Shown here: positions 6,401-47,906 of the stretch, in pieces | How positions within the stretch are numbered: the first letter of the stretch is position 1 | How the letters are laid out: each line of letters opens with the position of its first letter | Source of the DNA: Psilocybe cubensis | Lineage: Eukaryota | Direction: 5' to 3' | NCBI GenBank assembly: GCA_017499595.2 | Contig: CM039001.1 | Location: 372,001-436,000, forward strand | DNA: 64,000 bases | Translations under genes and position numbers: made by a program | The notes under the pieces: model-generated | What the model was told of the DNA's origin: nothing | The model's database searches: none | Seen by the model: the letters and a program-made list of their open reading frames with translations, nothing else

Positions 6401-6746
6401 AATGTTGAATTTAGAACTGATTGCATACACAAATCTCTTGTCTGCATTTTCAACGCGTAGAACAACGCCATCCGGCAAAGTGACCGAGCCGCTGTCCACA
6501 GCCTTCTTGGATTCGGCAGAAGGTTTTCCGAATGGATCCTTAACATTAGAAAACTGCAGGTGACGAGGCTTCAGGTATTCTTTAAGTTTTGCAGGGCGAT
6601 GAGCATCCTGGTTGGTGGTAAGGTACTGATGAAGCTGTATGTAGGATCTGCAATGAAACAATGTCATTACCGAACGAGTAAAAAGATACTAAAAGGGAGA
6701 CATACACATCGATCAAGTCTGAGCGCGGGTAGTTGTCGCCAGACAT
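411..6746 (-). CDS. NUP188: Nucleoporin Nup188-like large alpha-solenoid protein (~2050 aa)
   Basis: ATG at 6746 (MSGDNYPRSDLIDV), then a GTATGT intron, then the 1901-aa ORF (with an in-frame intron near 5320-5375) spliced to the 411-940 exon (HSKVVLGEPASLGTLLELG...). Size, helical composition and N-terminal motifs resemble basidiomycete Nup188; recognised from memory, not searched. Confidence 0.75.
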
Positions 6747-9223: not shown

Positions 9224-9536
9224 GAAACATATCGTTTTCTTAATCGCTTCTTTTACCTTAACGGTTTTGGTACCTGTTAACTCCTGTGCTTGGACTGACA
9301 GCAGGGGTATAACATCGCAATTATTGTGATTCAATATTCTAGATGTTTCGCTCGGCTGGTAGTACAGTGGGAATAGGATATCTTGTATTATTTCAATTTG
9401 ACGATTTGAAGGGGAAAGATAACAATTGAAGCAAAGCTTGACCAACGCACGAATGATTAAAAGAACCAGATACATCCCCCTGCCTGATATTCCGAGTCTT
9501 CGCGATAAAGCAAAACATCGCATTCTAGTGCTTGCT

Positions 9537-10028
9537 TCATCTCCCTCCACGAAGCGCAAGAACCAAGTGCAGAACAGAGCCAGCGGTGATGTTAAACTCT
9601 TTCGCTGTCTTGTCGTCGTTCCTGCGATGTGTGTGGCACAGCGTTCAGTAGGTACTATTGGATAGAAATACTCAAATTAAACGCACATCTGACGACCGCC
9701 GAAAATAAGGCGTTGCTGAGGCGGTGGAACGCCAGATTGTTCCTCAACTTTCTCCTTTATTCTGGTGATCTTCGAAAGGAAAGTTTTCGTTCAGTGAAAT
9801 GGTGTGAAATATGTTGAATGGGATGCTAACCTTATCATCAGGGTCGATGTCGAGTTCGATCTATATCGGAATCCAATGAATTCGGTCAGTATTTGCCTCT
9901 TATATGACGAGATCAAGCGCGATCTGAGGGAACAGAGTTACCTCTTTGCCTGTCAGGGTCTGACGAACGCGATTAGTCAACGAACAAGACTTGACTAGAT
10001 TGCGACACACCTTAACTTTGATCAACAT
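9537..10028 (-). CDS. NEDD8: Ubiquitin-like protein NEDD8/Rub1 (77 aa, 5 exons)
   Basis: Exons 10028-10011, 9959-9942, 9860-9831, 9769-9687 and 9621-9537, all with GT-AG introns, give [77 protein letters not shown]. The C-terminal LALRGG is the NEDD8 signature (ubiquitin has LRLRGG). Confidence 0.97.
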
Positions 10029-11303
10029 ATTGATATACCTCTATTGGCCTGATCAAGTCTTAATAGTTGTAATGAGGCGACAGAGCTATAAAGTATTAAG
10101 CAATGTGGCCCGATGAAAGAAAGATTGAAGAATGAAAGATCTCGGTTAAGACCTGTAGTGACTCCTGGCTAAATCTAATTAGAGTCACATGACCCTGATC
10201 TTTTCTCGCGACCGAGTTTGTTGACTCGTCACTTCTCAAAGTGTTATTTCAACCTGGCCATTTCCTCTTCTCGTGCGATCCGGTCTTGCGAATAGTCATG
10301 TACTAGTTCTTTTTTCAAGAAAATTTGAAAGTCATAGGATCCCGGAGCCATGAATGCCTTGGAGTCGATGTCACAACGGTTTCGATGGTGGAGCTTGCTG
10401 GAGTTAAATTTCGCAAGTTTGTTTACACTTCGATCAGTTCACACGAGTCTCATTGATACAGATTGCTTTGTACCTGCTCATTGTAGCCAAGGTTTTTCTT
10501 CGAATGTTGCTTGAAATAACGAGTCGGGACTGATCAGTCGTCCCTACATCCCCTCTGCAACAACACCAGGCTCCTGACAATTGAGCATGGCCATCGCCGA
10601 AGCACATTCATTCCAGAACCACTTTTCTGGCATATTGATTGGATGTTTCCTTCCAACAACAGTCGATATCCAAGTAATCTAGCCAACTGGCTGCACTGTA
10701 AATGTTACATTGTGCTGTCTATGATGAATCTGCAAATCAATATCATAGCAATTCGTCTATCTTCATCATTACGCGGATCATCATACCACCTCAAGGAAAA
10801 CTACATAACGGTTATCATCTTTTGGGTATTATGATGATTACTTTTTTGAATCTTGCAGGTTTTTTTCGCGTTAACAAATGCGGCAATCAACACACCCCGG
10901 CACAAAAGTGAATAAAAAATTCCCATAGGCGCGCTTCAGCATCCATTGCACATGGATGTTTGTACATTCTATTGTAAATACGACTTCTTTTCGACCGATG
11001 ATGTTCCGGATTCATGGCCGAGAGTATACTGACTCCACCAATTTGTATTCGTTGGATTCTCGAGAGAATCGCAGGTAAAACCCTTCGCTAATTCAAAACC
11101 AGGTAAGAAGACGACCTTTGGAAACTATTTTTGTAGATTATTGTTTGACGAGTATATTTATAGGGTGAAGACGATCAACAACGGATGTCAGTGAATCATT
11201 AAGTCTGGAGTCTAAAAAATCCCGTTGCAGACCAACGTCTCAGTGCGAAACGTAGAGTGTTCAGTGCGAATATATGTGCTGCTACCATGATACCACGGGA
11301 TCA

Positions 11304-11336
11304 ATTACCCCAGATTACCCCAGCAGACCTGCGGAG
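11304..11336. promoter_or_regulatory. Cluster of putative CreA/Cre1/Mig1 (SYGGRG) carbon-catabolite repression sites
   Basis: A perfect tandem duplication ATTACCCCAG ATTACCCCAG gives CTGGGG twice on the - strand, followed by GCGGAG. The cluster lies about 165-195 bp upstream of the sugar porter ATG. Confidence 0.45.
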
Positions 11337-11499
11337 AGAGAGCGCCGAGTCTACCTCCATCGAGCACATTCCTATCGGGATTTTGGTGGAAGATAATTCT
11401 TGACCTACGCTTGTATCGTTTAAAACCTAATGCTTTCGAAAGATGTCGACTGGGTGTCCCTCGACCATTCTATCCGCCCACTCCTAGGTCAAAGTCACG

Positions 11500-13719
11500 A
11501 TGGCTCAACCCGAATCCAATGAACGCACGAAGGAAAGGACTGTAGCTACGACGCCTGCGCAGCTGGTTTCCCAACTCGCCGCATTGGACGTTACGCCATG
11601 GTACAAGAAACCAAATCTCAGAATGTTGTACTTGATCATCTTCCCAACTTGTATTGGAGTGGAAATGACTAGCGGGTAAGAGACTTTCCTCTTGATACGT
11701 TTGACTGTTTGCCTGAAAGACTATGATTTGTAGTTTTGACTCATCTATGATGAACGGCTTACAAGCTGTCGACTCATGGGATAACTGTGAGTGGCTTGCT
11801 GAGTCTTTCGTATAACATCTTTTGATGGGTTGGTAGTCTACAACTCACCTAGGTCTACCCTTTTGGGTGTCATGTCAGCAATGTACTCCGCTGGAGCGAT
11901 TGTTGCGCTACCTCTTGTGCCTATAGTATCGGATGGATTCGGTCGCCGTTGGGCAATTACAGTTGGAAGTATTATCATGATTATCGGCGCCATTCTTCAG
12001 ACAGCCTCACAAAATTGTAATCCTGAATCAATCTCACTACCTCGTTATCGTGCCGCTGACTGTTTCTAACAGTCGCTATGTTCGTCATTTCACGGTTTAT
12101 TCTGGGGATTGGCATCCCTTTCGCTATTGTTGGGGCCTCTTCCTTGATTGGAGGTTTGTACCTCTTACATCAGGGTTTCGTAGCTGATGATTCTCGACTT
12201 AGAGCTCGGACATCCCAAGGAGCGTGCCGTTCTTGGGTCTCTTTTCAATGCCTTCTACTTTGTCGGCAAGTTCTTATCTCCACAGTTATTAGTTCGGAGG
12301 CTGATCTCTCTGAAGGCTCAATCACTGCTGCTGGTGTCACGCTCGGCACATTTCAGATGCCCAGTAACTGGGGATGGAGAATACCCTCCCTTCTGCAAGT
12401 TGTACCCAGCTGCTTGCAAATATTCTTCATGTTCTTCATGCCTGAATCCCCACGTTGGCTCGTCTCAAAGGGCCGCGGTGACGAGGCAATGGCAATCTTG
12501 GTGAAATATCATGCTGAAGGAGACGCCAACTCCGAGTTTGTGAAAGCCGAATATGTCCAGATCGAGACCACCTTGGAACTTGAGAGAGAAGAATCTCACG
12601 TTGGCTGGCTGGACATGTTAAAGACTGCAGGAATGAGACGCCGTGTACTTATTGGAGCGTTCCTTGGTCTCGCTACACAATGGAGCGGTAATGGTCTGAC
12701 ATCGTGAGTACTAATACTTCTACATGTCATTATACTCGACTTACAGTTAAAAAGGTATTTTCTTGCCCGAATTTTGGATACCGTCGGAATTCATGGAAAC
12801 GGCGCTAAAAACAAGGTTAACCTTGCTCTTTCCTGCTGGAGCTTTGTGAATGCCACAATCTTAGCTCTAACTATGTCTCGATTCAAAAGAAGAGTGGTAT
12901 ACCTGGTATGTTTAATCAGATGCTCCCTAACGCGCATGAATAACCAGATGTTGTTTGCAGACATGCACTATTTCTTTGCTGCTTTGCTTTACTGGGTGGA
13001 CAGTCGCAAGTGCACGATACGCTGCAGATGGAAGCCAGGGTGCTTCTCGGGCCGTTCTTGCGTACGCTCTCTCATGTTTGTGGAATTGGGTATCTACAAA
13101 TGCTAATTCATCTGGTCGCAGCTTTATATTTATTTATAGTCCATGCTATAATATCGCCTTCAATGCTATGACATATAGTAAGTTTTTTTACAATGTCAAC
13201 TTAAGCTACATCAGCATTGACGCCATACCCGTCCAGCCTTCCTTGTAGAGGTCTTTCCTTTCCATATCCGTTCCAAAGGTATATCCGTCTTCCAATGGTT
13301 CGGTCGCATGGCCGGGTTTTTCAATCAATTCGTCAATCCCATTGGAATACAACGAGCCGGTATGTTATATGTGAATAGCAGACGCTTGACATGTAAACTG
13401 ACCTCCTCTACAGGCTGGAAATACTACATCAGGTACATAAATACCATTACTTGACCACTCTGAACGTCGCTAAACAGGTTCTACGATAGTTATTGCATTT
13501 TCCTGGCTTTCGAAGTTCTTTTCGTGTTTTTCCTGTTTCCAGAGACCTCTGGTCGTAGCTTGGAAGAGCTCGCCTTCTGTAAGTACTGAAATTCCTTTGA
13601 ACCAAATATGTGCCTGACTATCAATTGAAGTGTACGAAGATGATGAGCTCCGCAAGCAAGAAGAACGAGTGGAAAAAGAGATTCGACAAGAAAATAAGGA
13701 TAACCTCTCCAAGGAGTAA
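11500..13719 (+). CDS. MFS sugar porter, lactose permease / cellodextrin transporter-like
   Basis: Multi-exon gene: PWYKKPNLRMLY...GFDSSMMNGLQ, SDGFGRR, ELGHPKERA, WGWRIPSLLQ, PESPRWL, TQWSGNGL, EVFPFHIRSKG, FPETSGRSLEEL. These are sugar-porter signatures of the Lac12/CDT-type clade. Confidence 0.92.
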
Positions 13720-13833
13720 ATGAGTATTATCACGAATGAACTACGACTACAATGACCTACTGTATCACTATCTTCCTTTCCCACGAACCTTTGTCACGCT
13801 TTCGGAATTTATTCAATTTATCCAACTTAACCC

Positions 13834-16800
13834 TTATGCTCCTATTCTGACTCGCAAATACATTTCAGAGACCCGCCTGGCATCCTCTGGACTTATGACA
13901 TCTGGCTCGCCTGAAAGTCCAAGCCACTTAGTGGGAGTGTATTCAAAAGGGGCCGGAGCATCAGGCAAGCAAGTGACATCCTGCTTTACCCCATAATCAT
14001 CGAAAGTGTAAGACCCCCCAGGCGCTTTGGGTGGATGCAGCAGGATTGCGTTCTTCATTTCCATTGATACATCGGCATCAAAGTAGTTCAAAGGTGTCAA
14101 CAAAAAGCTAATGAATAATTTATGCTTCAGAACGCGCGCTGCATTGTTGGGTTTAACCAAGAGGAACCATAACACACCTCGAAGTTGCCAGGTTGGTTTT
14201 CGTGTTCGGCGAATCTTCAGCTTGTGGCTATAATATTGAAGCAATATAAAAACGTTTTACGGCAAAGAAATGACATAACGACTCACGAGATGATGCATCC
14301 CCAGGTTAATCCAAGCCACCAGGTCCTGCTGTGTGATATTTTCCCCATTAAAGAATTTGTGGAAATCGACCATTGGAGCACCGGGAAGGTGAAGGTTCCA
14401 CATGCTGCTAGAGCTCGGCTCTGTCTCCTTCCGCAGCGACACTGCGAGGTTATACCGTGCCCAATTGGCATTGTTAAGAAGACGTTTGGAGCCGACGACA
14501 GTCTATAAGCCAAGATAATTAACATCTGTTAACGGGACAACTGCTCCATAAGAGCTGTAAAGCTACTGCGTACGTTGTGAATTGGCGAGTAGCCTGGGTG
14601 TATTGCATATCCTTTGGGAAGACCCCAGGTGTTTCGGACGTCCTGATTCACTATAGCGTACCCTCCCTGGAAGTTCGTTGGATATTTTAACAGTGCGTCG
14701 TCTTCATTTGCAATATATTCTTTGTTGATTCTTTGCTGTATCGCCTGTTTGCCCCAGTCATCGTCCAACCAGGGATGTGTAACTTCTTCTTGCTTCGTTG
14801 TAGTCTTGAGCAAAGAGTTCTCTGTCCCGGCGATGTCAAAATCGACTCTGGAGACATGCACAGCATAAGCCAAACGAAAAACACGGTTTGAAGAGATTAG
14901 CGAAACTTATAATTGATGACATGGTCGTGTAGGTTTCCCACTAAATTAACATTCATATCAACTATGTGAGATGGGTATAGTAGTATAGCACTTACTTGAT
15001 GTATGGCGGATTCTACCTCCATATCCTTCTTGGATTTTTGAAGTATAGTAACCCCCTTGCATATATCCTGATGCTGATAAGCGAACTTCAATGGTACCAT
15101 CAAGATAGAAGGAATAGTCAAACTGAAGGAAGTTGTGAACACACCATTACGAAACATTTTTACAATAGGATAACTTACCACTAGCAAGAGACAGACAGAA
15201 AAAAGATTGGTTAATGAAGGGTGAAACTCATTAAATAAGATAGCGTACGGTAATCGTAACTGGGAAAATAATTCAGAACAATAAAGCTTGTACAGAGGAT
15301 CGCACATACTTTCCAACAGTAGTAACTGTCCGGATGGTGAGAACATACGACTTGACGGCACCAAATTCTCCTTCCAAGAAACCGGTATGTCTAGACAGCG
15401 GTCTCCCAGTATCTTGTTCGAAAATGCAAATAGCTCGCTGGACTTGCACGTTCCCTTGTGGAGTGAATGTTATGGCTGGGAGGTATACCGATTCTTGTGG
15501 GCAGTCGTAATGCGGTATCATATCCCGTACCATGGTCCCCATGCCAAAGTGACGATCAAGCCAGGCAGTTGATGTTTGCAATGGATCATTTCCACCTATC
15601 CAAAATCCATAAGGTAATTGTACTGAGCATGGTATGTCAAGTATGTACCATATTGTGCAATTGCTTCTTGAGGTTGTAGCTAAACTCACGGATTAGCACT
15701 AAGCTTTAATTTCAAATCACACGAACCTGGTAGATGATTCTTTGACCGCGGAATCGAATGTCCCATAGATTTAACCCCATATCACGGTCGAATCCTAAGT
15801 ACATTCCCCATCCCAGCCAACTGACATATTGCTGTTCACGATCAATCCTGTAACGCAGTCCTGAAAATGATACCGAACGAGGTCCAGGAAGTTCGTCAAG
15901 ATCGCGGTCTTGTCCCACCCTCTTTCTCTGGGTCCAGGAAAAATCCAAGTCAGGCGCTTTCTGTTCCGGATGACGAACCAAAGTGCCGTTGTTATATGCT
16001 TCTAGGAAAGACTCAACAGTCGGAAATATTTGATCATGATACATAAGCTGTGTAAATGGGATCGTTGGTAACGAAATTGGGTTAGAAATAAATTAATAAC
16101 CTTGAGAATCTTCCACTGTGAGGGGTCTGTCCCTGATATGTCGATGTAATTGTAAAAATTGACGGGTAAAAGGTATGATCCTGCTGTATTTCTTCTCCAG
16201 GTTGTCCATAGACGCCTAAAGCTACCGTCGAAACTAAATGGGCCACTCATTCCAGCTATGAGGGTGTCATTGTCAAATCCCCTAATAGTCCCCCCAAACA
16301 AATCCTTTAGGTGGTATGACGAGTTAACGATTGCCATCATATGGATAAAAATTTACCTACTTCCATTGCGGGGATAAGAGGTTTCACTGCGCGTGCCATA
16401 AATGATGGAATGCTAGTCCAGTTAGTCAGTGCATAAGCATTAAACGGTATGTCTTCACGGTGGTATATTTCCGTAAGTCGACGAATTTTCGTGGCTGAGC
16501 CGATAGGAAGCGGACCGACCAGGTAGTCCTTGATTTCAGGTATTTTCAGTCCTCCGTGTTGTATTGTAACTCTTGCGTATCTGTCTGGCCGTGGAACCTG
16601 GTGAGGATCGTTAAGAAAAGCAAGCGCTTCTTTCTTTGGCGGATAGTAGGCTTCAATCAAATAAATGACATTATCAGAAAGGGCCGAATTCTTATTTTGC
16701 GTCAAGTTCAGGCGTCGCTCCGGGGCTCTAACCCATGCGTCGATTTCCGCGAGTTCTGGAATTGTCAACGATGCCCAGAGATTGACAGTGGCAGGTGGGG

Positions 16801-17074
16801 AGGCCTGTTGGTAAGTCGATGAAGGGCATCGTCCTGAACTTGCATTTTCGACCAAAGGCATATTGGGTCCGGTGCTACTGTGTCCACTATTTCCAAAGAA
16901 AGTATCCTGCTTAAGGATTCCATTGATATCGATGGCCGGTCGGATGATAGCCACTATGAGCAATACATTGAGTGTAAGAGAGATGATGAGGAGCAAGTAA
17001 CCCCTGGTCGCGTATCTTCCATGGCCAAAGCTAGTTGGAGAGGCTATATTGACTGGTTTAGATGAATGTGACAT
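13834..17074 (-). CDS. Copper-containing amine oxidase with N-terminal transmembrane anchor (AOC2/3-like)
   Basis: N-terminal hydrophobic helix (YLLLIISLTLNVLLIVAII). The TPQ motif TVGN-YDY-LFDY is rebuilt across microexons at 15249-15259 and 15179-15180. Copper ligand motifs LHDHVINYK and QDLVAWINLGMHHLPQAED are present. Confidence 0.93.
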
Positions 17075-17613
17075 GGTGGATATCGATAGAGGATTGGAGA
17101 GGACCTGAGATAGGCTTATCAGACATTCAATGTGTTTTGCATGAGTCCCCTTCGTAAGTCCGAGATCTTTTTAAAACCTTGAGAAAACTGACTCATAATT
17201 CAGCTAAATAAAATTCCTGAGAATTTATCACAGCCGAGGCAATCGTATCGAGCTTTGCATCATGAAAGCATAATCGGTCACTCCGGCGGCGCCCCTCCCA
17301 AGATTGCTTCAACTTGAAGTTGAAGGTTTTCGTTGGTAATTAACTTCGGTAAGGCGGCATCAGTGTTGCTACATGTATAACTAGTGACAAGCGAGACATA
17401 GAGTTCAAAGCCCTAGAGGTTCTGATGTTGTTTAAGAGGACCAGTAGGTCAAGATAAGACCAATGAATAGTTCGTGTACACGGTGAACAAGAAACAAGCC
17501 TTCCACTCGATGTTGATGGTGCCGCGCTTATGTAAACGGCATTAACCCACGCCCGTGCAATTCGTCTCGTCACAGTCTGAACACCACTGTCGACTTCCGT
17601 CTAACTTGAAAAT

Positions 17614-18625
17614 ATGGATGCAGAAGATACTCAAACGTCTGGACATCCATCTGTCTCTAGAGAAAAGGTATATGCTAATTGTGTGTGACCCAGAATAAAG
17701 CTGAACTTGGTATTTACAGACAGCGCCGTTTCTCATTCGAACATTCGTCAAGATCGGGAGCTTCCACCGCAATACGCTCTTCGAAGATGGAAGTCTACCA
17801 ACTACAGACGAACAGCAGATATTTACCTGGTGAGTTACTCGTCAATCCTCCAAGTTAAATCGATTAATTGCTTGCAGGAAAGACGCGACTTTGCGAGAAG
17901 TTTTGACTACGTTACGCAATACAGCACCTCATGTTGCAGAGTACAAGCACCCACTTGCCCGGTTCTCCTTCAGGACTGTTTTCCCTGACCCCAACAACAA
18001 AGGCAGGTTCACATCGAAAGATATCGGCATGGTTTACTCTCGTGATATCCTCGGAGAACCAGGCACCTTAACGAGCACTGCACCAAGGTTGCTGCAAGAC
18101 ACGGAGCCCCCAGCGCGTGGACACGGCGAACGCGAACGAGAGGAAAGAACTTTGGATGAACTGAGGTTCTATCCAGGCGACTATCTGCTCATAGCGGTGC
18201 TCCTTCCCAAAAATGTCAACCTACCCTCAGAAACTTCAATCAAGGGCTCTGGTGCCGGCGCGCCAGTGAGCCCGACAACAGGTTGGAGAGCAGGTGGTCC
18301 AGCGGCGAAGTCAGATGCAGGATGGGGAAGAGCTGTGGGGACTGGGCCTGGATTAGGACGAGGCGGTGGTCATTGGCGTGGAGACTCTAATGCTCCGGGC
18401 CCAGCTGTACGAGGGGGACGGGGCGGTGGCAGGGGTGGTGACTCAGGGCGAGATAGAGACCTTGACAGGTCAGATACACGCGTTCCTCCTCCTCGAAGGC
18501 ACGATTCGCCTCCTCGAGGCGGAGGTTGGGGTGACCGTGATAGAGGCGGTCGTGGGGGCCGCGGCGGAAACCGGCGCTCTCCATCTCGTTCAAGAAGCCC
18601 ACCCAGGAGAAGACGATATGATTGA
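17614..18625 (+). CDS. SAP18: Sin3-associated polypeptide SAP18 with RGG/RS-rich C-terminal tail
   Basis: Three exons: MDAEDTQ...SREK/TAPFLIRTFVKIGSFH...QIFTW/KDATLREV...ERTLDELRFYPGDYLLIAV. These match the SAP18 motifs (REKT.PFL, YTW.DATLREL, TL...RF..GDY). Confidence 0.9.
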
Positions 18626-18950
18626 TGTATTCCATCCTTCTATGCATTGCAATTCACTTATAATCATGTCTTCTGTACAGGCATATCGATTTACCATTTT
18701 TTGTTCCTTGCTTGGCTCTGTCACTTATGTCCGCTGCAATTGAATGCAATGACTAGATTCTACGACATTGAATTCTGTATGCCATTGGGATGCACTCCGT
18801 TCCGCCCCAATTCCGGAAATAGGCTGTGTAGTGTGCAATGATGGGAATGCCCGTACTTCACTAATTATATGACACATACTAGGACAGGGCCGGCGCCTCC
18901 AATTATCAGAGCACTCGCCGCAGCCATTCTTCTCTATCCATGTCCCCATC

Positions 18951-21900
18951 ATGGTGGAGATGCTTTCCAGGAATACGATGATTGAGGGCGATTCTCAAAG
19001 TTCTCAATACACGACTACGACCGACAGTACTATCCCTGGACCAGGTGCATTGGGAGGCAAAGCAATAAAGGCCCTGGGCAAGTTAACGATACGAGGTATC
19101 GATCGGGTGATTATCAATGCGCGCCTACGATCGATCACTTCGAAGTTCCCTCATAGCAATGAGCAAGCACTTGGAATCAAAGGTATTAGGGAGATGTACA
19201 ACGTTATTCTAGAGCTTTGCAGGTGAATATTATTTACATCTACATATTGATCTATACCTTACTGTACTCTTTTCTTAGGTCGGGCATGTATAACGACGAA
19301 TTAAGAGCGAAAGCACTTCAACTCCTCGTCGTTCAAATCAAACAAGGACAAGTACAACTCCTTGTAGAAGCTTTGGCAAGATGGCACCTTATTGAATTGG
19401 AACTTCTTCTGCCTGAAATTGTGGACATTATAATACCTTACCGGTACGCACATTCAATATCTTCACCCCTTGATAGAGAGAGACTCATACAAAGTGTACT
19501 AGGCGACAACCTTGGGGCCGAAACAGGCTCGCTCCAGAAATCCGCGATCATGTCCTCTGTGATCTTACGATCGTTAGACATCCTTCAAAAACTCAGCTAC
19601 GACTGCAAAAAGTTATCGACGAGGCCAAAGATCAAGACCAAGCACTTCGTACTGCTTACAGCCAATACTTCGACCCCGTGTTATCCTTTTTATCGCAAGT
19701 TGCAGCAATCAACACCAATACATGCAAAACGGTCCTTCAAGCTGGATTTTTGGATCTCCTGTTGTTGGTACAAAAAGGCAAGCTAGAGTATGAAAAGACT
19801 TCCGAAATATGCAAAGTTTTCCTGAGGCAAGTAGTCTGATTTGATTTTTTTTGTTTGAAGTTTTAAGAAAGTTAGAAAATTGACACCTTGTCAACAGTCA
19901 ACCCAAACTCGTTACACCTGCAGTAGAAGAAAAGATCTTAAATGTGGTCCTGAACGAGATACTCAATGGCCGAATTAATCACGTCATTGAAGCATTATCA
20001 AAGTGGAATATCGGTGACTTGAAGTCTTTGGTCATGCAACTGCAAGCAAATACTCCAATGTAAGGAAACGTTTATCAAACACAGTACAGCCACCGAGTTC
20101 CTGACACGTTTCTTTTAGAAGCCGTGTTCTGCTTCGACACATTGGACAACCTTCTCCACTCGAACAAAACATCACCTTTTTGTTCCGAATCGTTGAGTTG
20201 GGGAAACCTCACCTTCATATTGTTCTCGATGCCGGGTTTTTGGACATGATACCCACGGCACATGAAAACAAACTGAGAATCAATGATAACAGGTTAATCT
20301 CAATCATTTTCGAAGTACTGAAGTACGTGTATGCCTGTTTATGTTGTCGCCAAACTGATGTCGCCTTCTAGATCTAACTCTGGGTTGAAAGACCATCGAC
20401 CCAAAGCACTCGATATACTCATTCGCTACATAATCGAGCGTAAAACGACTCACATCCTTTCCATGCTATCCAGATGGGGCCACAAAGATCGCGAAGATGT
20501 GATCGTCGCCGTTTTTCAACGCGCCGGACCAGTGGGCTTTGGAACAGAAGGGCCATTTGGCCCAAGGAAACAGGTCTTTCACAGTCGAGATGGGTTGTAC
20601 CATTTTGACCAGGACAAAGTAATTTCTGTCATGATATTCGCTGGAGAAGTGGCTAGTCTGAGTGATGGCGCCTTTCATGCTGTCGTCAACGCAGGGATGC
20701 TTGACGCCCTTTTAGTCATACAATCGCACGACCTATCAGTTCATAGGCTTGATGAACCATACAATATCATTTTGGGAGTATTGAGGTACGCCATACGTTT
20801 CACAATGTTCATCATCGCCTACACGTTTGCTCAAGCCAACAGCAGATTAGGAGTCTTTGGAAATAAAATCCGCAAAAAAGCAATTGACCTGCTTGTTTTC
20901 CAAGTGTGTCGAGGCGAAGCTCGATACATGCTAAAGATCATGTCCAAGTGGAAACTCGACGAGCTAAACCGCTTGATTTGGGAGATTTCCGCGCAATTCC
21001 CCCCACTGAGGTATGGATGTTGTCCATGGAAATGTTTCGGTCAAGGCATTTTAACTGATATACATACAGCAATCGCCGTGCGCTGGAGGACCTTTTTTCC
21101 CGACCCCCTGAAACTCAATCACTTTCTACTCTGTATCTGCAGCGATTACTTTCCTTCTTGTCTGGGATTGCACAAATTAGCGAAGCCGCAAGTCAAGTCG
21201 TTTTCCAGACAGGGTTCATGGACCTGTTACTTGCCCTGCAAAAAGATAAAAGTGGCCAGAACGATTTTGAAGAGTTGGATGATCTGATTCTGAGCATTTT
21301 GCAGTACGTTTCGTAGCTTACGGCTTGTTACTTAGGTAAATTGACCTTTTCCTTTCAAAATCTTTCTAGGAAACCTCAATTATACGAAGATAAAACTAAG
21401 AAAAAAGCGATGGCCTATATATCTCTGCAGACTGAAAAAGAAGCAACGCATATGTATAAGGTTATTGGGAAGCGTAGCATATCAGAGCTGGAACTCATCA
21501 TAGCTGGGATGCTGGAACACTTCAATCTTGGAGGGTATGTTTTGTTTACAAAATCAGCAAAGCTCTGTTGTATTCTAATATGTATCTAGACGCCTTGCCT
21601 TGAACTCGTCTGCTCTTAGGGACCCTGCAATCGACCCAAAACATTTGGCGTCGCTCAACGCCTGCGTGATGATCTTTTCTAAAGTAATTCTAAAACATCG
21701 GTTTGCATTTCAGGCTCTCATCAACGCGGGCATCTTGGATCTCTTGCTTGCCATCCAATCTCGACAATGCAGCATAGATGGCATCAAACACATATATGAT
21801 ATCATACTCACCTCGGTGTATATGGAGAGCGTCAGCGACAAAGCTTTAAAAATTATCTCTTACCAGGTTATGAACCAGTCAACTTGTTTGCTGGAAACGC

Positions 21901-23056
21901 TGCAGCAATATGCGGACCAGGAGTTCCAAATCATAGCCCCTGTAGTGCTACAGGGCTTGAAGTACGTTTCTGACGATTTCTGAACACTGCTTACGTTTCT
22001 CATCGATATTTTGGCAGGAATGCACTTTCCGTGCATGAAGGACATATCACACCCTGTCCAGGACCGAACAAGAAATCGTTAACGAATTGCATCGTGTTCC
22101 TTCACAGACTTTCCACCATCAACACCGCCACATTTAACCATCTTCTGAACGCTGGGTTGGTCGATCTATTCCTCAAGATTGATCGGGTAGGAATACCTGT
22201 GGCCGCTCTCAATGACTTGTACTCCATGCTGCTTGAATATGCAAGGTACGAACCATTCTCTTTGGCAGTAGCTTGACCGGATACCAATTACTGTTTCACT
22301 AGGCCGAATGCATACGATCCTGATATCACCGCTCGTGTCCTCGATTATGTGAAGATCAGAGTAGAAACTGATAGATCGCACTTCTTCATGAGAGCGCTTG
22401 AAAGATTGGACCCCCCGATTCAGAACAACATCATAAAAGATCTAGTATATCGCTCTCGGGCGCTCTGGTGCGCCACCACAGGTTAAGATTAGTCTATAGA
22501 GTTTGCTAATTCATCTAACAGGTCGGGATGCCCTCCATCTTCACTCGGAAAAAAGAAATTAGGGGATATGTGGATCTCCTTTGTCCACTCAATTTCTGCG
22601 ATCTGTCGTCTAAGCTCATCAGCATGCCAAATCGTCCTTGAACAGGACATTCTCGATGCGCTCTACTTTATTTCCGAAAACGTAGAGCAGATGCCAGTAA
22701 CAAACCAGGTCGGTGTAGACAAAGTGGTCGTTCGTCGAGTCATCGATACTTTTCTTCTTGACGTCATCGCATATCCTGAGCACCGTGACACAGTTTTCCA
22801 CCATCCCGTTTATCCCCCATTACCAGAACCCAAGCGACCAGAAGCCAAAACGGTGTGCACAATACCCTCGGTCGAATGGGTGTCACAAATCGACATCGTC
22901 CTCATGTTTACAACCATCAAGACGAGTCAACAGTTCCAATACCTGTATTTCACATTACTGCCATGTGCGACAGTATGTTGGTCAATAATTTGGGTTTTTC
23001 TACTCGTAATGGAGCAAGGATCTTCCAGCAAAATAGTTGGCGTGGAATTAAATTGA
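18951..23056 (+). CDS. Uncharacterised alpha-helical tandem-repeat protein (13 exons, roughly 1100 aa, ~7 repeats)
   Basis: One continuous reading frame can be rebuilt through 12 introns. The N-terminus carries a TIPGPGALGGKAIKALG motif, followed by recurring KA(L/I)..L...I....(W) and AG(F/M/I/L)LD(L)LL blocks. The exact C-terminus is uncertain. Confidence 0.75.
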
Positions 23057-23189
23057 TCTTTTACAATATTTTGTATTCATCGTTCGTACGGCGTACAGGG
23101 ACAATGTTACATAATTTTTAGTCAGATGCGAGCACTGCAGAAGTTCGTCAGTAACAAGATCCAAGAGTCACTTAGAAAAAGTAAAAAGA

Positions 23190-23276
23190 AAGTTCAGACA
23201 AAAAATATAATGATTCCGGATAGACGTGATTCCTCATGAATATCAGTTGAGGGAGTCTGTATTGTCATCACAGATG
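23190..23276 (-). ncRNA. Intronic box C/D snoRNA, SNORD100 (HBII-429)/plant snoR30-like, predicted 18S rRNA 2'-O-methylation guide
   Basis: On the - strand: box C GTGATGA (23271-23265), guide CAGACTCCCTCAA, D' CTGA (23246-23243), C'-like ATGAGGA (23237-23231) and D CTGA (23197-23194). It lies inside the intron 23316-23135 (GTTAGT...TACTGAC...CTGCAG). The guide is complementary to the conserved 18S segment GAGGGAGCCTG with one mismatch. Confidence 0.8.
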
Positions 23277-23317
23277 GCGATGGTAGAAAGGGGATAAAGA
23301 GGACTATTACACTAACC

Positions 23318-23815
23318 TTAGCGGTTCTTGAAGTAGTCGAGGAGAACGTGGAGGCCCTCAGACTCAACACCGTACTCCTTAACGACAACACAGCTGCATC
23401 CGACGACCTTTCTTGGGTTGCCTTCACGGTCAATCTTGCAGAGACCAGCCCAGGTACCGAGGACTTTAGCATCTCCGACCTTGATGAGGTTGATCTTGTG
23501 CTCAGCGCAGAGAGCCTCAATGAGCTTGATGTACTCGGCTTCGGTGCAAGTCTCAACGAGCACGCAGAGATGGGCCTGGCGCTTGTCAAGAGCTTTAGCG
23601 CACTCGCGGAGGCCACGAGCGAGACCGTCGTGGACGAGAGCGTTCTTCAGAACTTGCTGCAGATGAAAGGCGTGAGACATCTCAAGACAGACGGTCTACA
23701 CAAGATAACCTACTTGAAGGGCATCCTCAACAGAAAGTTTGCCTTTGGGGGCCTCGGTGGAAACCTCGACCTCAGCGGCGACCTCGACAGGAATGTCATC
23801 TCCAGCGTCAGACAT
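23318..23815 (-). CDS. RPS12: 40S ribosomal protein S12 (eS12)
   Basis: [12 protein letters not shown]...[32 protein letters not shown]...[22 protein letters not shown]...FKNR*. There is one coding intron, a probable 5' UTR intron and a 3' UTR intron. Confidence 0.98.
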
Positions 23816-24086
23816 CCTATTAAAACCAGGTCAGATCCTAGTCATTCTGAATATTCCTGCGCACCAACTTTTGTTGTTATAAATGCTTTAAAGGTTTACA
23901 AGAAGTTGTGGATGTCTTCGTCCGCTTTCGTTGATGTGAGGAAAAAATAAGGTTTCTGTGGGCGGGTTATACTAAAAGGTTTCAATCTCAGTTCGGAATT
24001 TGCCGACGTTCCTCTCTCTTCTCTGCTCACCGTCTCAGACGACCCCGACGCGTATATCAACTTTGACGCGCCTTGTAAAATAAAAT

Positions 24087-25377
24087 ATGGTAAATAAGCT
24101 TGACTATAATTTCTACGAAGCTTATTCTATGTAGAGTTTAGCATTTCTCCACGCGCATGACTGCACAGAACGTATTATACCCCATATTGCTCGAATCATC
24201 AACGATCGATAGGCTTATACGCATCTCTAGCCCATTCTGACGCTGTTTGGGGGGTTGCATGGACTGCTAATGATACAGCTATCTCCGTCTCTGCCGATGG
24301 CTCCGTGAAGCAGTGGTCATCAGCTGTTGGACAACCCCATCCTCCCAATGCATCATTCCCTCCACCGCATACACTGGCTCAAGTTTCTTTATCGGTTTCC
24401 AGAGATGGAAGAAGGGCCCTCTATAACAGTATAGAGGGTTTGACTAGCCTGTGGAATCTAGAAAATGGGGAAGTAGTAGGGACATTTGAGAGTTTTACCA
24501 GAGTGAATGAGGATTCTGAACCATGTACGTCGCATGTATTCATCATACAGTCTAATTATTGTCTCACCAAGTCCTCAGCTTGGTCAGTTTCCCTTCATCC
24601 CAGCAGTGACACGTATGCTTCTACTGGAGGATCCGGCAATGTTCACATTCACTCAGCTAAACCCGAGAACTTTGGGCAACGCATCTCAACTCTATCGTCT
24701 GGAAGGAACAAATTTGGAATGTTCTGCGCTTATGTATATCTTTAATTCGGTTTTTATTGACTTTGTATTGACACATTTCAGAGTCCAGATGGTCAACGCG
24801 TTGCCATGTCCTCTGAATCAGGACAAATCTACATTTTCGACGTTGAATCTGGCAATTTATCGTTTACATTCACTTCTCATGCAATGTCCGTTCGCTCCTT
24901 AGCTTGGTCTCCCGACTCCAACGTGTGTTGTTATCTCTATGCTTCTCTTAAATTCTGACAACCGTGGCGATGTAGCTCCTCCTGAGTGCTTCTGAGGATA
25001 AGCGTCTCCTTTTGCACGATGTTCGCACTGCGCCTGGAGGAGCAGTGGCCTCCTTTTCGGGACATTCATCATGGGTTCTCAGCACTGATATTTCTCCTGA
25101 CGGCCGTCTAGGACTATCTGGGTAGCTAATAATCAATGCTATTGTTTCGATTGACTTCTAATTTCTATTCTTATTCTGTAGATCCGCAGATAAAACTATT
25201 AAGGTTTGGGATATTGGCGCACGGGCAGCGGTCTCAACAATCCAAGACACTGGGGAAGTTTGGTCTGTGTCATGGCGCCCAAAACCTGCAGCTGTTGGTA
25301 GCCCAGGAGCGTTCGTCAGTGGAGGGGAGGACGGCGTGGTGAGATGGTGGCGAGGAGCTGGATCTTCCACATCATGA
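24087..25377 (+). CDS. SKI8: WD40 repeat protein Ski8/Rec14 (WDR61-like)
   Basis: The first exon is ATG only. Then SLAFLHAH...PHSDAVWGVAW...SADGSVKQW, HAMSVRSLAWSPDS, GHSSWVLSTDISPDG, SADKTIKVWD, ending VVRWWRGAGSSTS*. The H.D.VW start, HAMxVRSL and GHSSWVL motifs fit the WDR61/Rec14 family. Confidence 0.8.
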
Positions 25378-28327: not shown

Positions 28328-31300
28328 TTAGAGGAACTCGAATCGGAGAGAGATGGATTTGTCAAACGCGCATAATCGCCCGGAAAGCTGGTCTAAAACC
28401 TGTTCATCAGTACCTCGAACACGACACTTCCCCCTCGCAATCCACCGTTTGGAAAAAACTGAGGCACATACCTGCCCGAGTCGAGCACCATTGGAGTTTC
28501 TCCATTTGAACGAAATTTTGTTTGCTCTTTTGGCCGGAAACATGCGAAAGCGCGATTCGTGCGCGCGCCAGCCACGCTTTGGGTCAAGCTTGGCAGGTAT
28601 ATTAGTGAGTACCGAGATAATCAAGCCTAGAGCTGCGGTATTGAGGGTGTCCGATAAACCGGAAACAGTATGCTCTCTGGACGCAGTGCACGTGGATTTC
28701 GGGTTTACAGTGATGGAATAGGGGCTAGTCGGACGTTGGGTATGGTGTACGTTGCTCAAGGCATGCGTCGTCGCTCCTCGATGTGATGTCGAAAGCGCAT
28801 TATCAATACTACCAGAATGATCTTCGTTATCCTCGAATTCGACTTCTCCTTCGGCGTCAGCATCTGGGTCATGTTCATCATCCTGGCCAGGTCCAGGCGA
28901 CGATCCACCACTTGGACCAGGCGGTGGTGGATCTGGCGGTGGTGGAGACCTTGACCTGGAAGGTTTCGTTGAAACAACATCATCGTCATTTTCTTCATCA
29001 TCTTCCTGTTCGCCTTCCGCGTCTTGATCATCGTCTGCATCGATATCAGCCTCAGCGTCCGCGTCTTCGTCTATGGTAGGTTCAGGATCCTTCATATAAA
29101 CGTCATCCGTGTGTGAGTGAGCGGTAGGCTGAACGTCAACAGAAGATGATGATGACGGGAGAAGAGGAGACACGTATTGTATGTCGTTTATTACATGTCC
29201 ATTTGCTAATGTCGCAGGATCTGGTGGGGCATCATCAACTCCCATAGGTGTTTGGGGTTCTACCCAGGTGTTAGGTGTATCTCGGGACGAAGTCCCCCTT
29301 ATAGATGCATTTTCAACAGAAACTGACTCGACAATTGGTGCAGACTTGGTAGATGTCGGCTCGGGTGTGGATGTAGGCTCATCCGACGTAGATTCGGTCG
29401 TTGGTGCAGTTTCAACAGGCATAGATGTAGGTGTAGGTTCAACAAAAACAGGTTCGGGTGCAGGTGTAGATTCAGCAGGCATAAATGCGGCGGGAGTAGG
29501 TGTGGGGTTGGGCTCGACAGATATACGCTCTGATGCAGGTATAGGCGTACGCTCAGCAGATATTGGCACGGGTTCAGGTAAAGGTTCGTTCACAGGTTCT
29601 TCTACAGAAATAGCAGCAGCAGCAACAACAGACGCAGAGGGCTCCGACACCCTCCCAGCCTCCGTCGCACCTTCGCCGCCGTCGTCATTTTTATCGTCGT
29701 CAAGTTCATCAACATCGTCCTCGTCCTCGTCCTCGTCGTCGTTATCATGATCATTGCGGTCGTGGGTGTCTCGCGGCGGTGGCACAGGGGGCCGTCGGTC
29801 GCTCCCACGCACAGGCGAAGAACCAGAATGAAAAGAGCTTGGTCTGGCCCGCTGACCCCACGCGACAACGGGACGTAGACCCCCAATCTTTGGCTCATTC
29901 GGTTGGGTTTGGTGTTGTGGCTGGCGTTGAGACTGCGCGGGATGCCGCGGCGTATAGTCGCGCTCGTATTCATGTTCCTCACTCCGCCGTTCCCTTTCCC
30001 TTTCCCTCTCCGGCGCTTTGCCTGCCGCTCTCGAGGATGACAGCGCGATCGCCTCATCCAGTGGGGAGTATCCCGGACCTGGCGCAATCACTCGCGGGCC
30101 AGGAGGAGAGATGATACGGGACCCAGGAGGAGAAATGATCCGCATCGACCCCACCTCGCTGTCCACCCTCCCGCGCTGCGGCCTGCCGCTGGTGGGAGTT
30201 GTGGTGGTATTCGAAGTGGCCTTCGTGCGGCCTCGCGTCCTCGCCATGCCCCGCGCGGATGATGCCGAGCTAGACGACCCGGGCTGCTGAACAGGTGGCG
30301 ACACCGCGCGTCTCCGCGAAGCCTGGCGAACAGGTCGTGTTGATATGACAGACATCTGCGACGGCGGAATGATGCTCCTCGCAGATTCGCGCCGCGTCGC
30401 TCTGCCCCTGCCCAGCCCGGCCTCTACCTCGCCATTCCGCTCTTCCGCGCGTTCCTCTGTTGAATGCCGCTCCCGCGCCTTGCCCTTGCCCTTATTCCCT
30501 GCATTATTCGAATTAGCCAACGAGGACGCACCCCGCCTCTCAGATTGATCCGCGTCGATGAATGCAGCGGACGCCTGATCAGCTTGATCCGCCAGCACAT
30601 CAAGTGCGGTTCTCACACGTTCCAGTCCCTTGCCCTGCCCCACATTCCCCTTGCCATTACCCGCTCCCGCAGAAGCGGACACCCGTCGCCTTTTTTGTGG
30701 AGGCAAAGGACTCTCCGGCTCATCCATCGCACGCCCCTTTCCATTGGCCTTACTATTACCCCGTAGCTTGCTCGTGGTGCTCCCTTCGCCGTCGATCAAG
30801 AGTGCCGCATCCAGAAGCGATGCAAGAGGAGTAGGCGGGTTGCTCGCGGACGCCTTGTCGGTTGCCGGTGTGGCTGTCGCTGTTGTGGTTGTAGCACGCC
30901 CGTTCTGCCGCCCCATTGTCGCCTTGATCTGCCTCGGCGTGCCCATTACCCCGCTGCCGGCCCACGGTGACCGCGTCACCGGGTCCGCATTGACATACAC
31001 CAAAGGTGTCTCTGGAGGCGCAGCGAGATTGTTCTGAGCTGAAGCGAAGTTCGAAAAGTGGATACCGCCCCTCTTCGGCGTGCGCAACGGGGAGTTACCA
31101 ATTACTGGGATGATATGCGGCACGCGCAACGGGCTCGCCGCAGGCATCCCTCCCACTGTAGAAGCAGACGTCGACGCCTCAGCACCTGTGCGATAGTATG
31201 GAGCCATCGCACCGTTGGCCATACGTTCCTGCTCCGCCCTTTCCAGCTCCTGTTGGGCGCGCGCCTGCTCCTGCTCCTGTGCGAGTGCCTCCTTCTCAAC

Positions 31301-32487
31301 CTGCAGGTTGTAGCCTGTGATAAACGCGACACGTTTCCGACCAAGTCTTTTTGCGGCGAGGAGTAAGTGCTCGCTGTAGGCGTCGGACATTAATGGAGGC
31401 CCAGTTTTTTTGGGTTGCGATTTGGGGTCTCGGGGCCGCTGTTGATTGGAATCTGCATTTGCATTGGTTGCAGCGGCACCGGTGGGAGTCGTGGATGCAT
31501 CGGGGGCCTTTGAAGTTGACGCTGTAGCGTGAGCGCTAGCTGCTGCTTTAGCAGCTAATTGTTTTTTAAGGGCGTTGTGTTGTGTTTGATTTAGCCCCTG
31601 CTCGACAAATTCCACTTGGTATTTAGGTTGCGCCTCTTTAGCTTTGCCCTTGTCTAGTCGCGATATCGGAGACGGCTGCATGAGGAGCATCGGTTTAAGT
31701 TTCAAAAGCTCTGCTTCAAGCGCCGCTTGTCGGCGCTGCGTCTCATGCAACTAAAAATACAGTTTCATCAGTGGCTGCAACAATCCAATACTATACCATC
31801 ATCACCACATACTTTATCTCTCAGAGCTTTGTTTTCTGCTTCGTATGACATGCGCATGCGTTCTGCGTCCTGTGGGATGGAATCAAGACAGCTACTGGGA
31901 TGAGATGCAGGCTGATACACACTTCGGGTTTGCTCGGTCTATTCCTGACCAGCAATAAAGCCTCTGCAGAGCGCTCCCAGCTCTCCCGCTCAGACTGCCA
32001 TCTCTCGCGGTCCACTACAGCCTGCCGAACCAGAAAGTCACGCTGTGCAGTCAGCGACGAGATCGTCTCCGCCTGTCTCTCCAGCTGCGCAGGATCAACA
32101 GGTACAGATGTCATGAGAGATAACACCTAACAGACAACATAAAACCACTAGGTCAGAAAAAGGCCCCTGGTTTCACAACGCACATTAGCAATAGCATTTA
32201 AATCGTACCATATCTAACAATTCCTTCTCCCGAGAGCTCATTCCTGGAGGCAAAGCGGAGTCACTCTCCCCAGCATTCGACTGTCTGGCCACCGGATATC
32301 CCAAGTCATTTAATCTGCGCCGAAGGTTTGCGATATCAACCTGGCTATATCCTTCCATAGACGCACTTGTTGTGCTACCGTAGGCATTTTCTCCATCGTC
32401 GGACCCAGGCCCGGGCACAGGTGAGGGAGACATGGTGTGCAGGATGTCGGATAACGCCAGGGATGGCGGGTTGTCCGTAGCACTCAT
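28328..32487 (-). CDS. Large low-complexity protein with N-terminal coiled coil, function unknown
   Basis: Exons MSATDNPP...LLDM / VLSLMTSVPVDPAQLERQ... / DAERMRMSYEAENKALRDK / LHETQRRQAALEAELLKLKP... join the 1140-aa ORF, which has acidic and Pro/Thr-rich regions. The true 3' end is uncertain. Confidence 0.7.
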
Positions 32488-47409: not shown

Positions 47410-47906
47410 TTGACTAGTTAATATGTGATGGGGGACCAACTCGTGTAAAACTCGTGGCTGGATTGACAATGACAATCATGACCCTGAACTTCAAAGGGCC
47501 CCTCCCTGAAAAATAGCCTGTAACTCTAGATCCTGAAAATTTCAGAAATTAAAATTAAAATTTCATTCATTGTCAAACACGATCATATCAGATTTTACAC
47601 GCCTCGTGTGGTGTGTGTAAAGTTGTACAGGGTCGCGCTTATTTGTAAGTCGCGTCGCGACTCGCGACAACGCGCGTGCAAAAACGAAACACGAAATTTG
47701 ATGCGTTTATAATAGGAATTTCTATATTCGGAAATGATTGATAAGATTCGTCTCAACACGTGTGCACGCTGACAAGAAACGCGAAAATCTTCCAATACAC
47801 TGATTACAAGATTTCGCAGTACTTGAATTTGTTTTACCATTGACAATTCTACTAACTTTTTCCTATTCCTATTCATATTATCTCCCAACCGTTTGGGTTT
47901 GGTATC

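What the first reader, a model, noticed from the sequence alone, without database searches (positions are those of the whole stretch)
18951..23056. 13-exon tandem-repeat protein gene in which all 12 introns are phase 2
In the manual reconstruction every intron interrupts a codon after its second base (e.g. 19223-19278, 19444-19502, 19827-19897 and all later ones). All internal exons are therefore symmetric and can be skipped, duplicated or swapped in frame. The protein has about 7 degenerate units of roughly 110-150 aa, each made of two half-modules. A halves: KALQLLVVQIKQGQVQLLVEALARW / EKILNVVLNEILNGRINHVIEALSKW / KALDILIRYIIERKTTHILSMLSRW / KAIDLLVFQVCRGEARYMLKIMSKW / KAMAYISLQTEKE / KALKIISYQVMNQ / RVLDYVKIRVETD. 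B halves: LQAGFLDLLL / LDAGFLDMIP / VNAGMLDALL / FQTGFMDLLL / INAGILDLLL / LNAGLVDLFL / LEQDILDALY. Introns fall at the A/B boundaries, with two apparently lost. I recognise no named domain; it is ARM/HEAT-like only by composition. Inference: an alpha-solenoid expanded by exon-pair duplication, able to diversify by shuffling or alternative splicing, as expected of a variable sensor or non-self-recognition scaffold.
Basis: partly seen in the sequence, partly recalled or inferred. Interest (0 to 1): 0.7.

Follow-up and report, generated by a model that had tools for sequence, protein, structure and literature searches.

The report
Old, fixed fungal armadillo-repeat gene
A mushroom gene grew into a long helical-repeat protein by copying one segment that held two introns, which explains its uniform introns; the array is now fixed, but it belongs to an unnamed, changeable protein family of mushroom-forming fungi.

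Summary
The gene (Psilocybe cubensis JR316_0004236) has 13 exons, all 12 introns are phase 2, and spliced contigs confirm 10 of 12 junctions. It encodes a conserved N-terminal cap, seven A+B units (about 14 armadillo-like repeats by profile and predicted fold) and a hydrophobic tail.

The phase bias is not twelve independent events. Introns 1 and 2 lie at the same sites, in phase 2, in distant short relatives, and the other ten occupy homologous positions. The duplicated segment probably began inside exon 1, so symmetric exons were not needed.

This gene is not a variable sensor on present evidence: it is single-copy, its units are only 18-19% alike and group by position across three genera, and no skipped exon or length variant was seen (shallow data).

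The family is the more interesting result: 376 clusters with no Pfam model, Agaricomycetes wherever named, several paralogues per genome in some species, independent duplications of the same module, and one branch fused to a catalytically degenerate G-alpha. Function is inferred only: most likely a regulated binding scaffold.

The parts
18951..19222 (+). Exon 1: Ser/Thr-rich low-confidence tail, Gly-rich basic N helix (about 19038-19145) and the short 'x' helix (about 19194-19222) at which the duplicated segment starts
   Evidence: junction
19223..19278 (+). Intron 1, phase 2; ancestral in the family; inferred source of the B-to-A introns 3, 5, 6, 8, 11
19279..19443 (+). Exon 2: A1 (165 nt)
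19444..19502 (+). Intron 2, phase 2; ancestral; inferred source of the A-to-B introns 4, 7, 9, 10, 12
19503..19826 (+). Exon 3: insert + B1 + x helix
19827..19897 (+). Intron 3, GC-AG, phase 2; not covered by spliced contigs; public model uses a donor at 19788 (also phase 2)
19898..20059 (+). Exon 4: A2 (162 nt); followed by intron 4 (20060-20118, not covered by spliced contigs)
20119..20322 (+). Exon 5: B2 + x helix; followed by intron 5 (20323-20371)
20372..20785 (+). Exon 6: A3 + B3 + x helix (A/B intron absent); followed by intron 6 (20786-20845)
20846..21010 (+). Exon 7: A4 (165 nt); followed by intron 7 (21011-21069)
21070..21303 (+). Exon 8: B4 + x helix; followed by intron 8 (21304-21369)
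21370..21534 (+). Exon 9: A5 (165 nt); followed by intron 9 (21535-21589)
21590..21961 (+). Exon 10: B5 + x helix + A6 (B/A intron absent); followed by intron 10 (21962-22017)
22018..22245 (+). Exon 11: B6 + x helix (best match to the end of exon 1); followed by intron 11 (22246-22302)
22303..22467 (+). Exon 12: A7 (165 nt); followed by intron 12 (22468-22521)
22522..23056 (+). Exon 13: B7, the family's C cap motif, Pro-rich linker, hydrophobic tail, stop
22955..23011 (+). 19-residue hydrophobic stretch near the C-terminus (mean hydropathy 2.28); possible tail anchor, shared with Galerina, not seen in the Agrocybe and Panaeolus models

Best explanation
A single-copy gene for a non-enzymatic armadillo-like binding scaffold, the seven-unit form of an undescribed Agaricomycete family. 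Origin (largely shown): the ancestor had an N cap, one A+B pair of armadillo-like repeats and two phase-2 introns. A segment running from the x helix at the end of exon 1 to beyond the B repeat was duplicated in tandem, most likely by unequal crossing-over, carrying both introns each time. Two of the 14 intron copies expected were lost, and the array froze before Psilocybe, Agrocybe and Panaeolus separated. Function (inferred): the family-conserved N cap and first repeat dock on a conserved partner, with the Ser/Thr-rich tail as a likely phospho-regulated element; the added units have specialised by position and give a long fixed surface for a large partner or complex, possibly held at a membrane by the hydrophobic tail. 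A G-alpha-type GTPase is the only candidate partner class that the data name.
For: Splicing: 10 of 12 joints. Ancestral intron 1: of 101 relatives with the site, 41 leave homology there and 34 of these stop or continue with a residue that a phase-2 G|GT donor allows, against 9 of 60 that run on. Ancestral intron 2: 11 of 18 short fragments that leave after A do so at the same residue with the same signature (read by eye). Mid-exon start: ends of B6 and B3 rank 1 and 2 among 856 and 1,030 windows (5 and 2 of 982 in Panaeolus) against family exon-1 ends; independent duplications in P0145 and P0073 begin at the same helix (z 45 and 38). Fixed array: units group by position; same-position identity 51-52% against 18-19% within a protein. 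Single locus in four searches. Armadillo-like: family profile hits designed armadillo proteins at E 3.6e-9 and PF16 at 4.9e-5; confident all-helical models (mean pLDDT 84.0 and 83.6). Conservation peaks in the N helix (14 of 41 positions at 70% or more, against 4 of 162 in the C-terminal part). Housekeeping neighbours SAP18, a ribosomal L7Ae/S12e-family gene and a WD40 gene.
Against: No partner or activity is shown. B1 and B5 ends rank poorly against exon-1 ends (52-333 and 100-245 in the register used), and all armadillo helices are distantly alike, so the mid-exon breakpoint is likely, not proven. Intron ancestry is read from protein fragments, not from relatives' DNA. Only five full or near-full seven-unit proteins were found plus Galerina pieces, few for a conserved scaffold. 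The long model has pTM 0.57 and was made for the Panaeolus orthologue (43% identical). The hydrophobic tail is missing from three of five orthologue records examined. RNA depth was about 4-11, too low to exclude minor skipped forms.
Confidence: 0.6

Rival explanations
1. The family is an NTPase-free surveillance (guard or decoy) system: a conserved N cap is the output, the armadillo units and fused degenerate domains are the sensing part, and this gene is a long, conserved helper-type member.
For: 376 clusters at 50% identity; two or three paralogues each in Collybiopsis, Hohenbuehelia, Mycena, Collybia and Arthromyces, some with neighbouring locus tags; 14 of 60 long members with internal duplications, in several branches; a G-alpha fusion in two genera forming one branch (100/98) whose G-alpha lacks the catalytic Arg and Gln (P0145) or the P-loop too (P0159); conserved amphipathic, basic, Gly-rich N helix.
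Against: No NACHT, NB-ARC or named cell-death domain in 149 relatives plus the six first hits. This gene is single-copy among housekeeping genes. Cluster numbers also reflect many genomes and gene fragments. The fusion is one event, 2 of about 160 proteins seen.
Confidence: 0.2
2. One reading: this gene itself diversifies by exon skipping, shuffling or repeat-number change and acts as a variable non-self sensor.
For: All internal exons are symmetric and most encode one armadillo-like repeat; four of five free A exons are exactly 165 nt, so skips would be in frame. Unit number differs between lineages (3-4 in Hypsizygus, Tephrocybe, Collybia; 7 here).
Against: No skip joint among the 15 joints listed. 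Same number and order of units in three genera. Internal identity 18-19%, at most 41%, against 80-100% for HNWD repeats (PMC13449251, passages). Only short DNA repeats of 16-25 nt. Seven coding differences in exons 1-12 among four runs, three non-synonymous; no coding length variant.
Confidence: 0.07
3. The family is a dedicated G-alpha chaperone, exchange factor or scaffold that works like Ric-8, serving the expanded G-alpha repertoire of these fungi.
For: G-alpha fusion; 65 G-alpha family matches at many loci of this genome; Ric-8A at Foldseek rank 13 for the Mycena model (E 0.026).
Against: The Ric-8A match is weak (TM 0.23) and lies among generic armadillo hits; no Ric8 Pfam hit; no G-alpha match on this gene's contig; the fused G-alpha is degenerate.
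Confidence: 0.13

Closest known systems
Armadillo-repeat superfamily (designed armadillo proteins, SPAG6/PF16, APC, beta-catenin, ZYG11B, SARM1 ARM domain)
   Same: Three-helix repeats with the LL.AG.L..L-type motif in the B half; profile E 3.6e-9; best structural Z 9.8 (rmsd 11.4, 256 aligned) and 10.9 (rmsd 20.0, 276 aligned); APC Z 10.7, rmsd 4.8, 271 aligned.
   Different: No Pfam Arm hit at cut-off; an alternating A/B two-repeat unit with an extra short helix and variable insert; a family-specific N cap; no single structure stands above the rest, so no orthology.
Tetrahymena 90-bp-exon LRR genes (PMC6564038, passages read)
   Same: Repeat-coding exons of near-constant length separated by phase-2 introns, which that paper explains by clonal expansion from one or a few exons.
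   Different: There thousands of young, species-specific genes; here one old gene with two alternating exon classes and fixed order.
Ectocarpus ROCO-LRR and NB-ARC-TPR exon-shuffling receptors (PMC3341825, passages read)
   Same: About one repeat per symmetric exon.
   Different: Those have GTPase or NB-ARC domains, high gene turnover, shuffled exons and diversifying selection; none was found for this gene.
Fungal NLRs with high internal conservation (HNWD; PMC13449251, passages read)
   Same: Superstructure-forming repeat array in a fungus.
   Different: No ATPase domain; repeats 18-19% alike, not 80-100%; no length polymorphism seen.
Ric-8 (armadillo/HEAT G-alpha chaperone and exchange factor; function recalled)
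   Same: Armadillo-type solenoid with a link to G-alpha; weak Foldseek row.
   Different: No Ric8 Pfam hit; the link here is a gene fusion in another branch of the family.

Membership tests
Armadillo-repeat superfamily | Tandem three-helix repeats forming a solenoid | tested here: met
   Predicted only: all-helical models, long-short-medium helix pattern twice per unit
Armadillo-repeat superfamily | Sequence-profile similarity to armadillo repeats | tested here: met
   Family profile A5: 31 of 54 listed sequences at E below 0.001, all armadillo-type; the five-sequence profile A2 gave only E 4.7-6.4
Armadillo-repeat superfamily | Pfam Arm (PF00514) score over cut-off | tested here: not met
   No hit; best E 0.25 in P0160
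Armadillo-repeat superfamily | Canonical superhelix and peptide-binding groove residues | tested here: inconclusive
   Z at most 10.9 with high rmsd; groove residues not examined
HEAT-repeat proteins | Two-helix repeats superimposable on a HEAT solenoid | tested here: inconclusive
   Foldseek top rows are CAND1 and importins (E 4e-7) but TM at most 0.23 and rmsd over 19
Fungal NLR / HNWD receptors | NACHT or NB-ARC domain | tested here: not met
Fungal NLR / HNWD receptors | High internal conservation of repeats | tested here: not met
   mean 18-19%, maximum 41%
Fungal NLR / HNWD receptors | Repeat-number polymorphism among strains | tested here: inconclusive
   None in the two DNA-like runs laid; too few, and they may not be independent of the assembly
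Exon-shuffled repeat receptors (Tetrahymena, Ectocarpus type) | Uniform intron phase, about one repeat per exon | tested here: met
Exon-shuffled repeat receptors (Tetrahymena, Ectocarpus type) | Multigene family in the genome with reshuffled exons | tested here: not met
   One locus; units group by position
Exon-shuffled repeat receptors (Tetrahymena, Ectocarpus type) | Alternative splicing of repeat exons | tested here: inconclusive
   No skip joint, but shallow contigs drop rare forms
Exon-shuffled repeat receptors (Tetrahymena, Ectocarpus type) | Diversifying selection on repeat surfaces | not testable with these tools
   No orthologous coding DNA available; within-species differences were 8 non-synonymous and 12 silent
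Ric-8 | Ric8 family sequence match | tested here: not met
   No such Pfam hit
Ric-8 | Binds G-alpha | not testable with these tools

The most novel reading that the evidence does not exclude
An unrecognised, NTPase-free surveillance family of mushroom-forming fungi: a conserved Gly-rich amphipathic N cap as output, an armadillo sensor whose two-repeat module has been re-duplicated independently in several lineages, and integrated dead domains (a GTPase-deficient G-alpha) as decoys, with this seven-unit, possibly tail-anchored protein as its conserved long form.
Probability: 0.2. Interest if true: 0.75.

Novelty: new variant of a known kind. Interest (0 to 1): 0.42.

Why it matters
For gene evolution it is a clean case showing that a perfect intron-phase bias in a repeat gene can be a founder effect of two introns copied by a mid-exon duplication, and need not mean shuffling or splicing diversity. 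For fungal biology it exposes a large armadillo-like family with no Pfam model that is named only from Agaricomycetes here, varies in repeat number between lineages and has captured a degenerate G-alpha. The single, expressed copy in P. cubensis makes a knock-out and pull-down easy to interpret, and would test whether mushrooms have a defence or G-protein scaffold outside the NLRs.

Tried and rejected
Self-BLAST of the spliced model gave no off-diagonal hit; shuffled pairwise scores and HMMs were needed. Pfam: no relevant family for the exons, the orthologues or 149 relatives. ESM Atlas: only leads at 0.85 or lower (Arm, RICTOR, KAP) and no usable feature hit for P0159. Two metagenome scans for relatives' DNA found none (118 and 156 pattern matches, none confirmed), so intron ancestry rests on protein fragments. 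No run was on record as RNA; X1 and X2 are treated as RNA because they are spliced. Searches used a faulty pattern and are discarded; one search replaces them. A PX-like tail in P0078, P0085 and P0124, seen by eye from a recalled motif, was not supported by Pfam or a PDB profile search. Structure searches picked no specific relative. Complex prediction of the armadillo part with G-alpha was not available: no verdict. No Rfam match in 17000-25000. The public model's 13th intron and retained intron 6 were rejected. Literature: searches for armadillo + Agaricales + gene family expansion (0 papers), the locus tag (0), and (listings and abstract starts only) showed no description of this family; a term search in 10.1101/2021.12.09.471732 (first 300,000 of 469,902 characters) found no armadillo or G-alpha passage. 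Subscription journals and supplements were not searched and could hold family lists that include it.
Full report
Identity and gene model. Exon 1 is 100% identical to hypothetical protein JR316_0004236 of Psilocybe cubensis (P0001). Twelve introns of 49-71 nt join 13 exons between 18951 and 23056 into one open frame, with phase 2 after every intron. Contigs of two spliced runs show 10 of the 12 junctions and move the acceptor of intron 6 to 20845, which keeps phase 2 and makes exon 7 165 nt; four of the five free A exons are then exactly 165 nt. Introns 3 (GC-AG) and 4 were not covered. The public model's extra phase-0 intron in the last exon is unlikely, because a Galerina protein matches straight through it.

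The repeats. Exons fall into two classes with z up to 19 against shuffles. Profiles give N-(AB)7-C for four proteins (P. cubensis, Agrocybe chaxingu, two Panaeolus) and seven A with six B for a truncated P. cyanescens model, with no hit in 83 reversed proteins. No Pfam family fits. A 97-sequence family profile matches designed armadillo proteins at E 3.6e-9, PF16 at 4.9e-5 and SPAG6 at 5.6e-4. AlphaFold2 models of the Panaeolus orthologue (pLDDT 83.6, pTM 0.57) and a Mycena relative (84.0, 0.83) are all-helical; each half shows a long, a short and a medium helix, and a short extra 'x' helix precedes each A. I read a unit as two armadillo-like repeats plus that helix. Structure searches return generic armadillo and HEAT proteins with no outstanding match. 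The P. cubensis protein itself was not folded.

Why all introns are phase 2. Taken as independent, 12 of 12 would have a chance of 4e-9 to 2e-6; two founders give 0.04-0.11 (assumed rates). The introns sit at two homologous positions, 11-12 residues before the start motif of A and 17-20 residues after its conserved Trp position (read). Both sites are old. Of 149 relatives examined, 48 lacked the pattern used and 101 had the intron-1 site. Sixty ran on into A; 41 did not, and 34 of those stop at once or continue with a residue from a T-initial codon, as reading into a phase-2 G|GT donor forces, against 9 of the 60 (Leu and Ser have other codons, so this is approximate). Of the seven others, five look spliced and two fit GC donors (by eye). 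For intron 2, 21 short proteins were printed; three run on into B, and 11 of the other 18 leave at the same residue with the same signature, one more fits a GC donor, and six do not fit or leave elsewhere (by eye). This is indirect: two scans for relatives' DNA found nothing.

Where the duplicated segment starts. The 3' ends of the B exons resemble the 3' end of exon 1. Scored against 101 family exon-1 ends, the ends of B6 and B3 rank 1 and 2 of 856 windows in P0002 and of 1,030 in P0003, and 5 and 2 of 982 in P0004; B4 ranks 13-36, B2 9-177, and B1 and B5 rank poorly. Independent duplications in Collybiopsis P0145 and Plicaturopsis P0073 begin at the same helix (z 45 and 38) and lie outside the multi-unit branch. 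The simplest model is tandem duplication with breakpoints inside exons, carrying both introns. Such an event needs only a length divisible by three, so exon symmetry is a by-product. The mechanism, unequal crossing-over, is inferred.

Is this gene variable? Four searches of the genome found one locus, between SAP18 and a ribosomal L7Ae/S12e-family gene. Halves within a protein are 18-19% identical (maximum 41%), the same position in other species 51-52%. Six of seven positions form groups with bootstrap 96-100, and unit 1 has 86/87, where Galerina units 2 and 3 join their positions. So there has been no homogenisation or reordering since these genera split. DNA repeats are only 16-25 nt. Four runs give 20 coding differences, 8 non-synonymous and 12 silent, 13 of them in the last exon, where density stays high into the next gene. 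No skip joint was listed, but depth was about 4-11 and contigs drop rare forms. Unit number does differ over deep time: Hypsizygus, Tephrocybe and Collybia proteins have three to four units by eye (HMMs detect only part) and group with the seven-unit proteins at 92/97, with one long-branch row inside.

The family. A search of 1.84 billion representatives gave 376 proteins at E up to 0.001, of which 150 were listed. Thirty were looked up: 26 carry names, all Agaricomycetes (mostly Agaricales; Plicaturopsis, Somion and Hermanssonia lie outside that order by my recollection), and four are unnamed. Of 83 proteins of 330 aa or more, 50 show one A and one B; many have a divergent second armadillo-like region. 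Several species have two or three paralogues, some with nearby locus tags. Fourteen of 60 long members have internal duplications at z of 5 or more. Conservation is concentrated in the Gly-rich N helix, the x helix and A, behind a tail that is 50% Ser/Thr; the first 18 residues of the helix are amphipathic and basic. Two members from different genera, P0145 and P0159, end in a G-alpha domain (E 1.9e-53 and 3e-16) and form one branch (100/98), so the fusion is probably real but a single event. P0145 keeps the P-loop and NKxD but has other residues at the catalytic Arg and Gln positions seen in a canonical G-alpha of this genome; P0159 lacks the P-loop. No G-alpha match lies on this gene's contig. 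Binding could not be modelled.

How it most likely works. Shown: a spliced, single-copy gene for a helical repeat protein with no enzyme or NTPase domain and position-specific conservation. Inferred: it binds partners, as armadillo proteins generally do (established knowledge); the conserved N cap carries the family-wide function and may be controlled through the Ser/Thr tail; the added units give a long fixed surface. A 19-residue hydrophobic stretch near the C-terminus (hydropathy 2.28), shared with Galerina but absent from the Agrocybe and two Panaeolus records, could anchor it to a membrane. I give this 0.6, a family-level surveillance role 0.2, a Ric-8-like role 0.13 and the variable-sensor reading of this gene 0.07.

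Comparison and novelty. Phase-2 arrays of repeat exons are known in Tetrahymena LRR genes, explained there by clonal expansion (PMC6564038, passages). Exon-per-repeat receptors are known in Ectocarpus (PMC3341825, passages), and polymorphic near-identical repeats in fungal NLRs (PMC13449251, passages). This gene shares the architecture but fails the tests that define those systems: NTPase domain, paralogue array, high internal identity, reshuffling. It is armadillo-like by profile and predicted fold, though below the Pfam cut-off. Nine literature searches showed no description of the family; closed journals and supplements were not seen. Novelty: new variant of a known kind; interest 0.42.

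Noticed in passing
G000 C1:37665-39130, C19:12174-13639, C2:68213-69679, C7:46536-48129, C9:97985-99427, C10:3017178-3018644 and 3044999-3046457: At least seven loci with the same G-alpha-like exon pattern, all within about 100 kb of a contig start or, on C10, its end, among 65 G-alpha family matches; the three aligned are near-identical. Looks like a recent subtelomeric expansion.
   Followed up: partly
P0145 (Collybiopsis confluens), P0159 (Paramarasmius palmivorus): Family N cap and armadillo unit fused to a degenerate G-alpha; one branch of the tree.
   Followed up: partly
P0078, P0085, P0124, C-terminal 150 aa: Three related members share a different C-terminal domain that resembles a PX domain by a recalled motif; Pfam and PDB profile searches did not support it.
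   Followed up: partly
window 22588-23907: Differences between runs and the window jump about tenfold from exon 13 onward into the ribosomal protein gene, like the edge of a divergent haplotype block.
   Followed up: no
window 23135-23316, minus strand: A 182-nt intron downstream of the coding region of the convergent ribosomal protein gene; its spliced transcript reaches the 3' end of the repeat gene, and one contig merges both.
   Followed up: no
P0001 public model versus window 19788, 20786-20845, 22973-23121: The deposited annotation has an alternative donor, a retained intron and an extra last intron that removes the hydrophobic tail; the Galerina orthologue is split into at least two models (P0007, P0080).
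   Followed up: yes
window 28328-31750, minus strand: Stop-free frame of 1,140 codons with no Pfam match.
   Followed up: no
window 47856-50102, plus strand: 748-codon frame in a GC-rich stretch with TPR matches near its end.
   Followed up: no
window 962-6688, 8465-17170, 54788-55408, 60202-63569: Other genes by Pfam: NUP188, DUF4419, sugar transporter, copper amine oxidase, EMC6 and a Dicer-like gene.
   Followed up: no
P0054 (Collybiopsis confluens, 1,433 aa): A family member joined to about 900 unrelated residues without a Pfam match, seen once; probably two genes merged in annotation.
   Followed up: no
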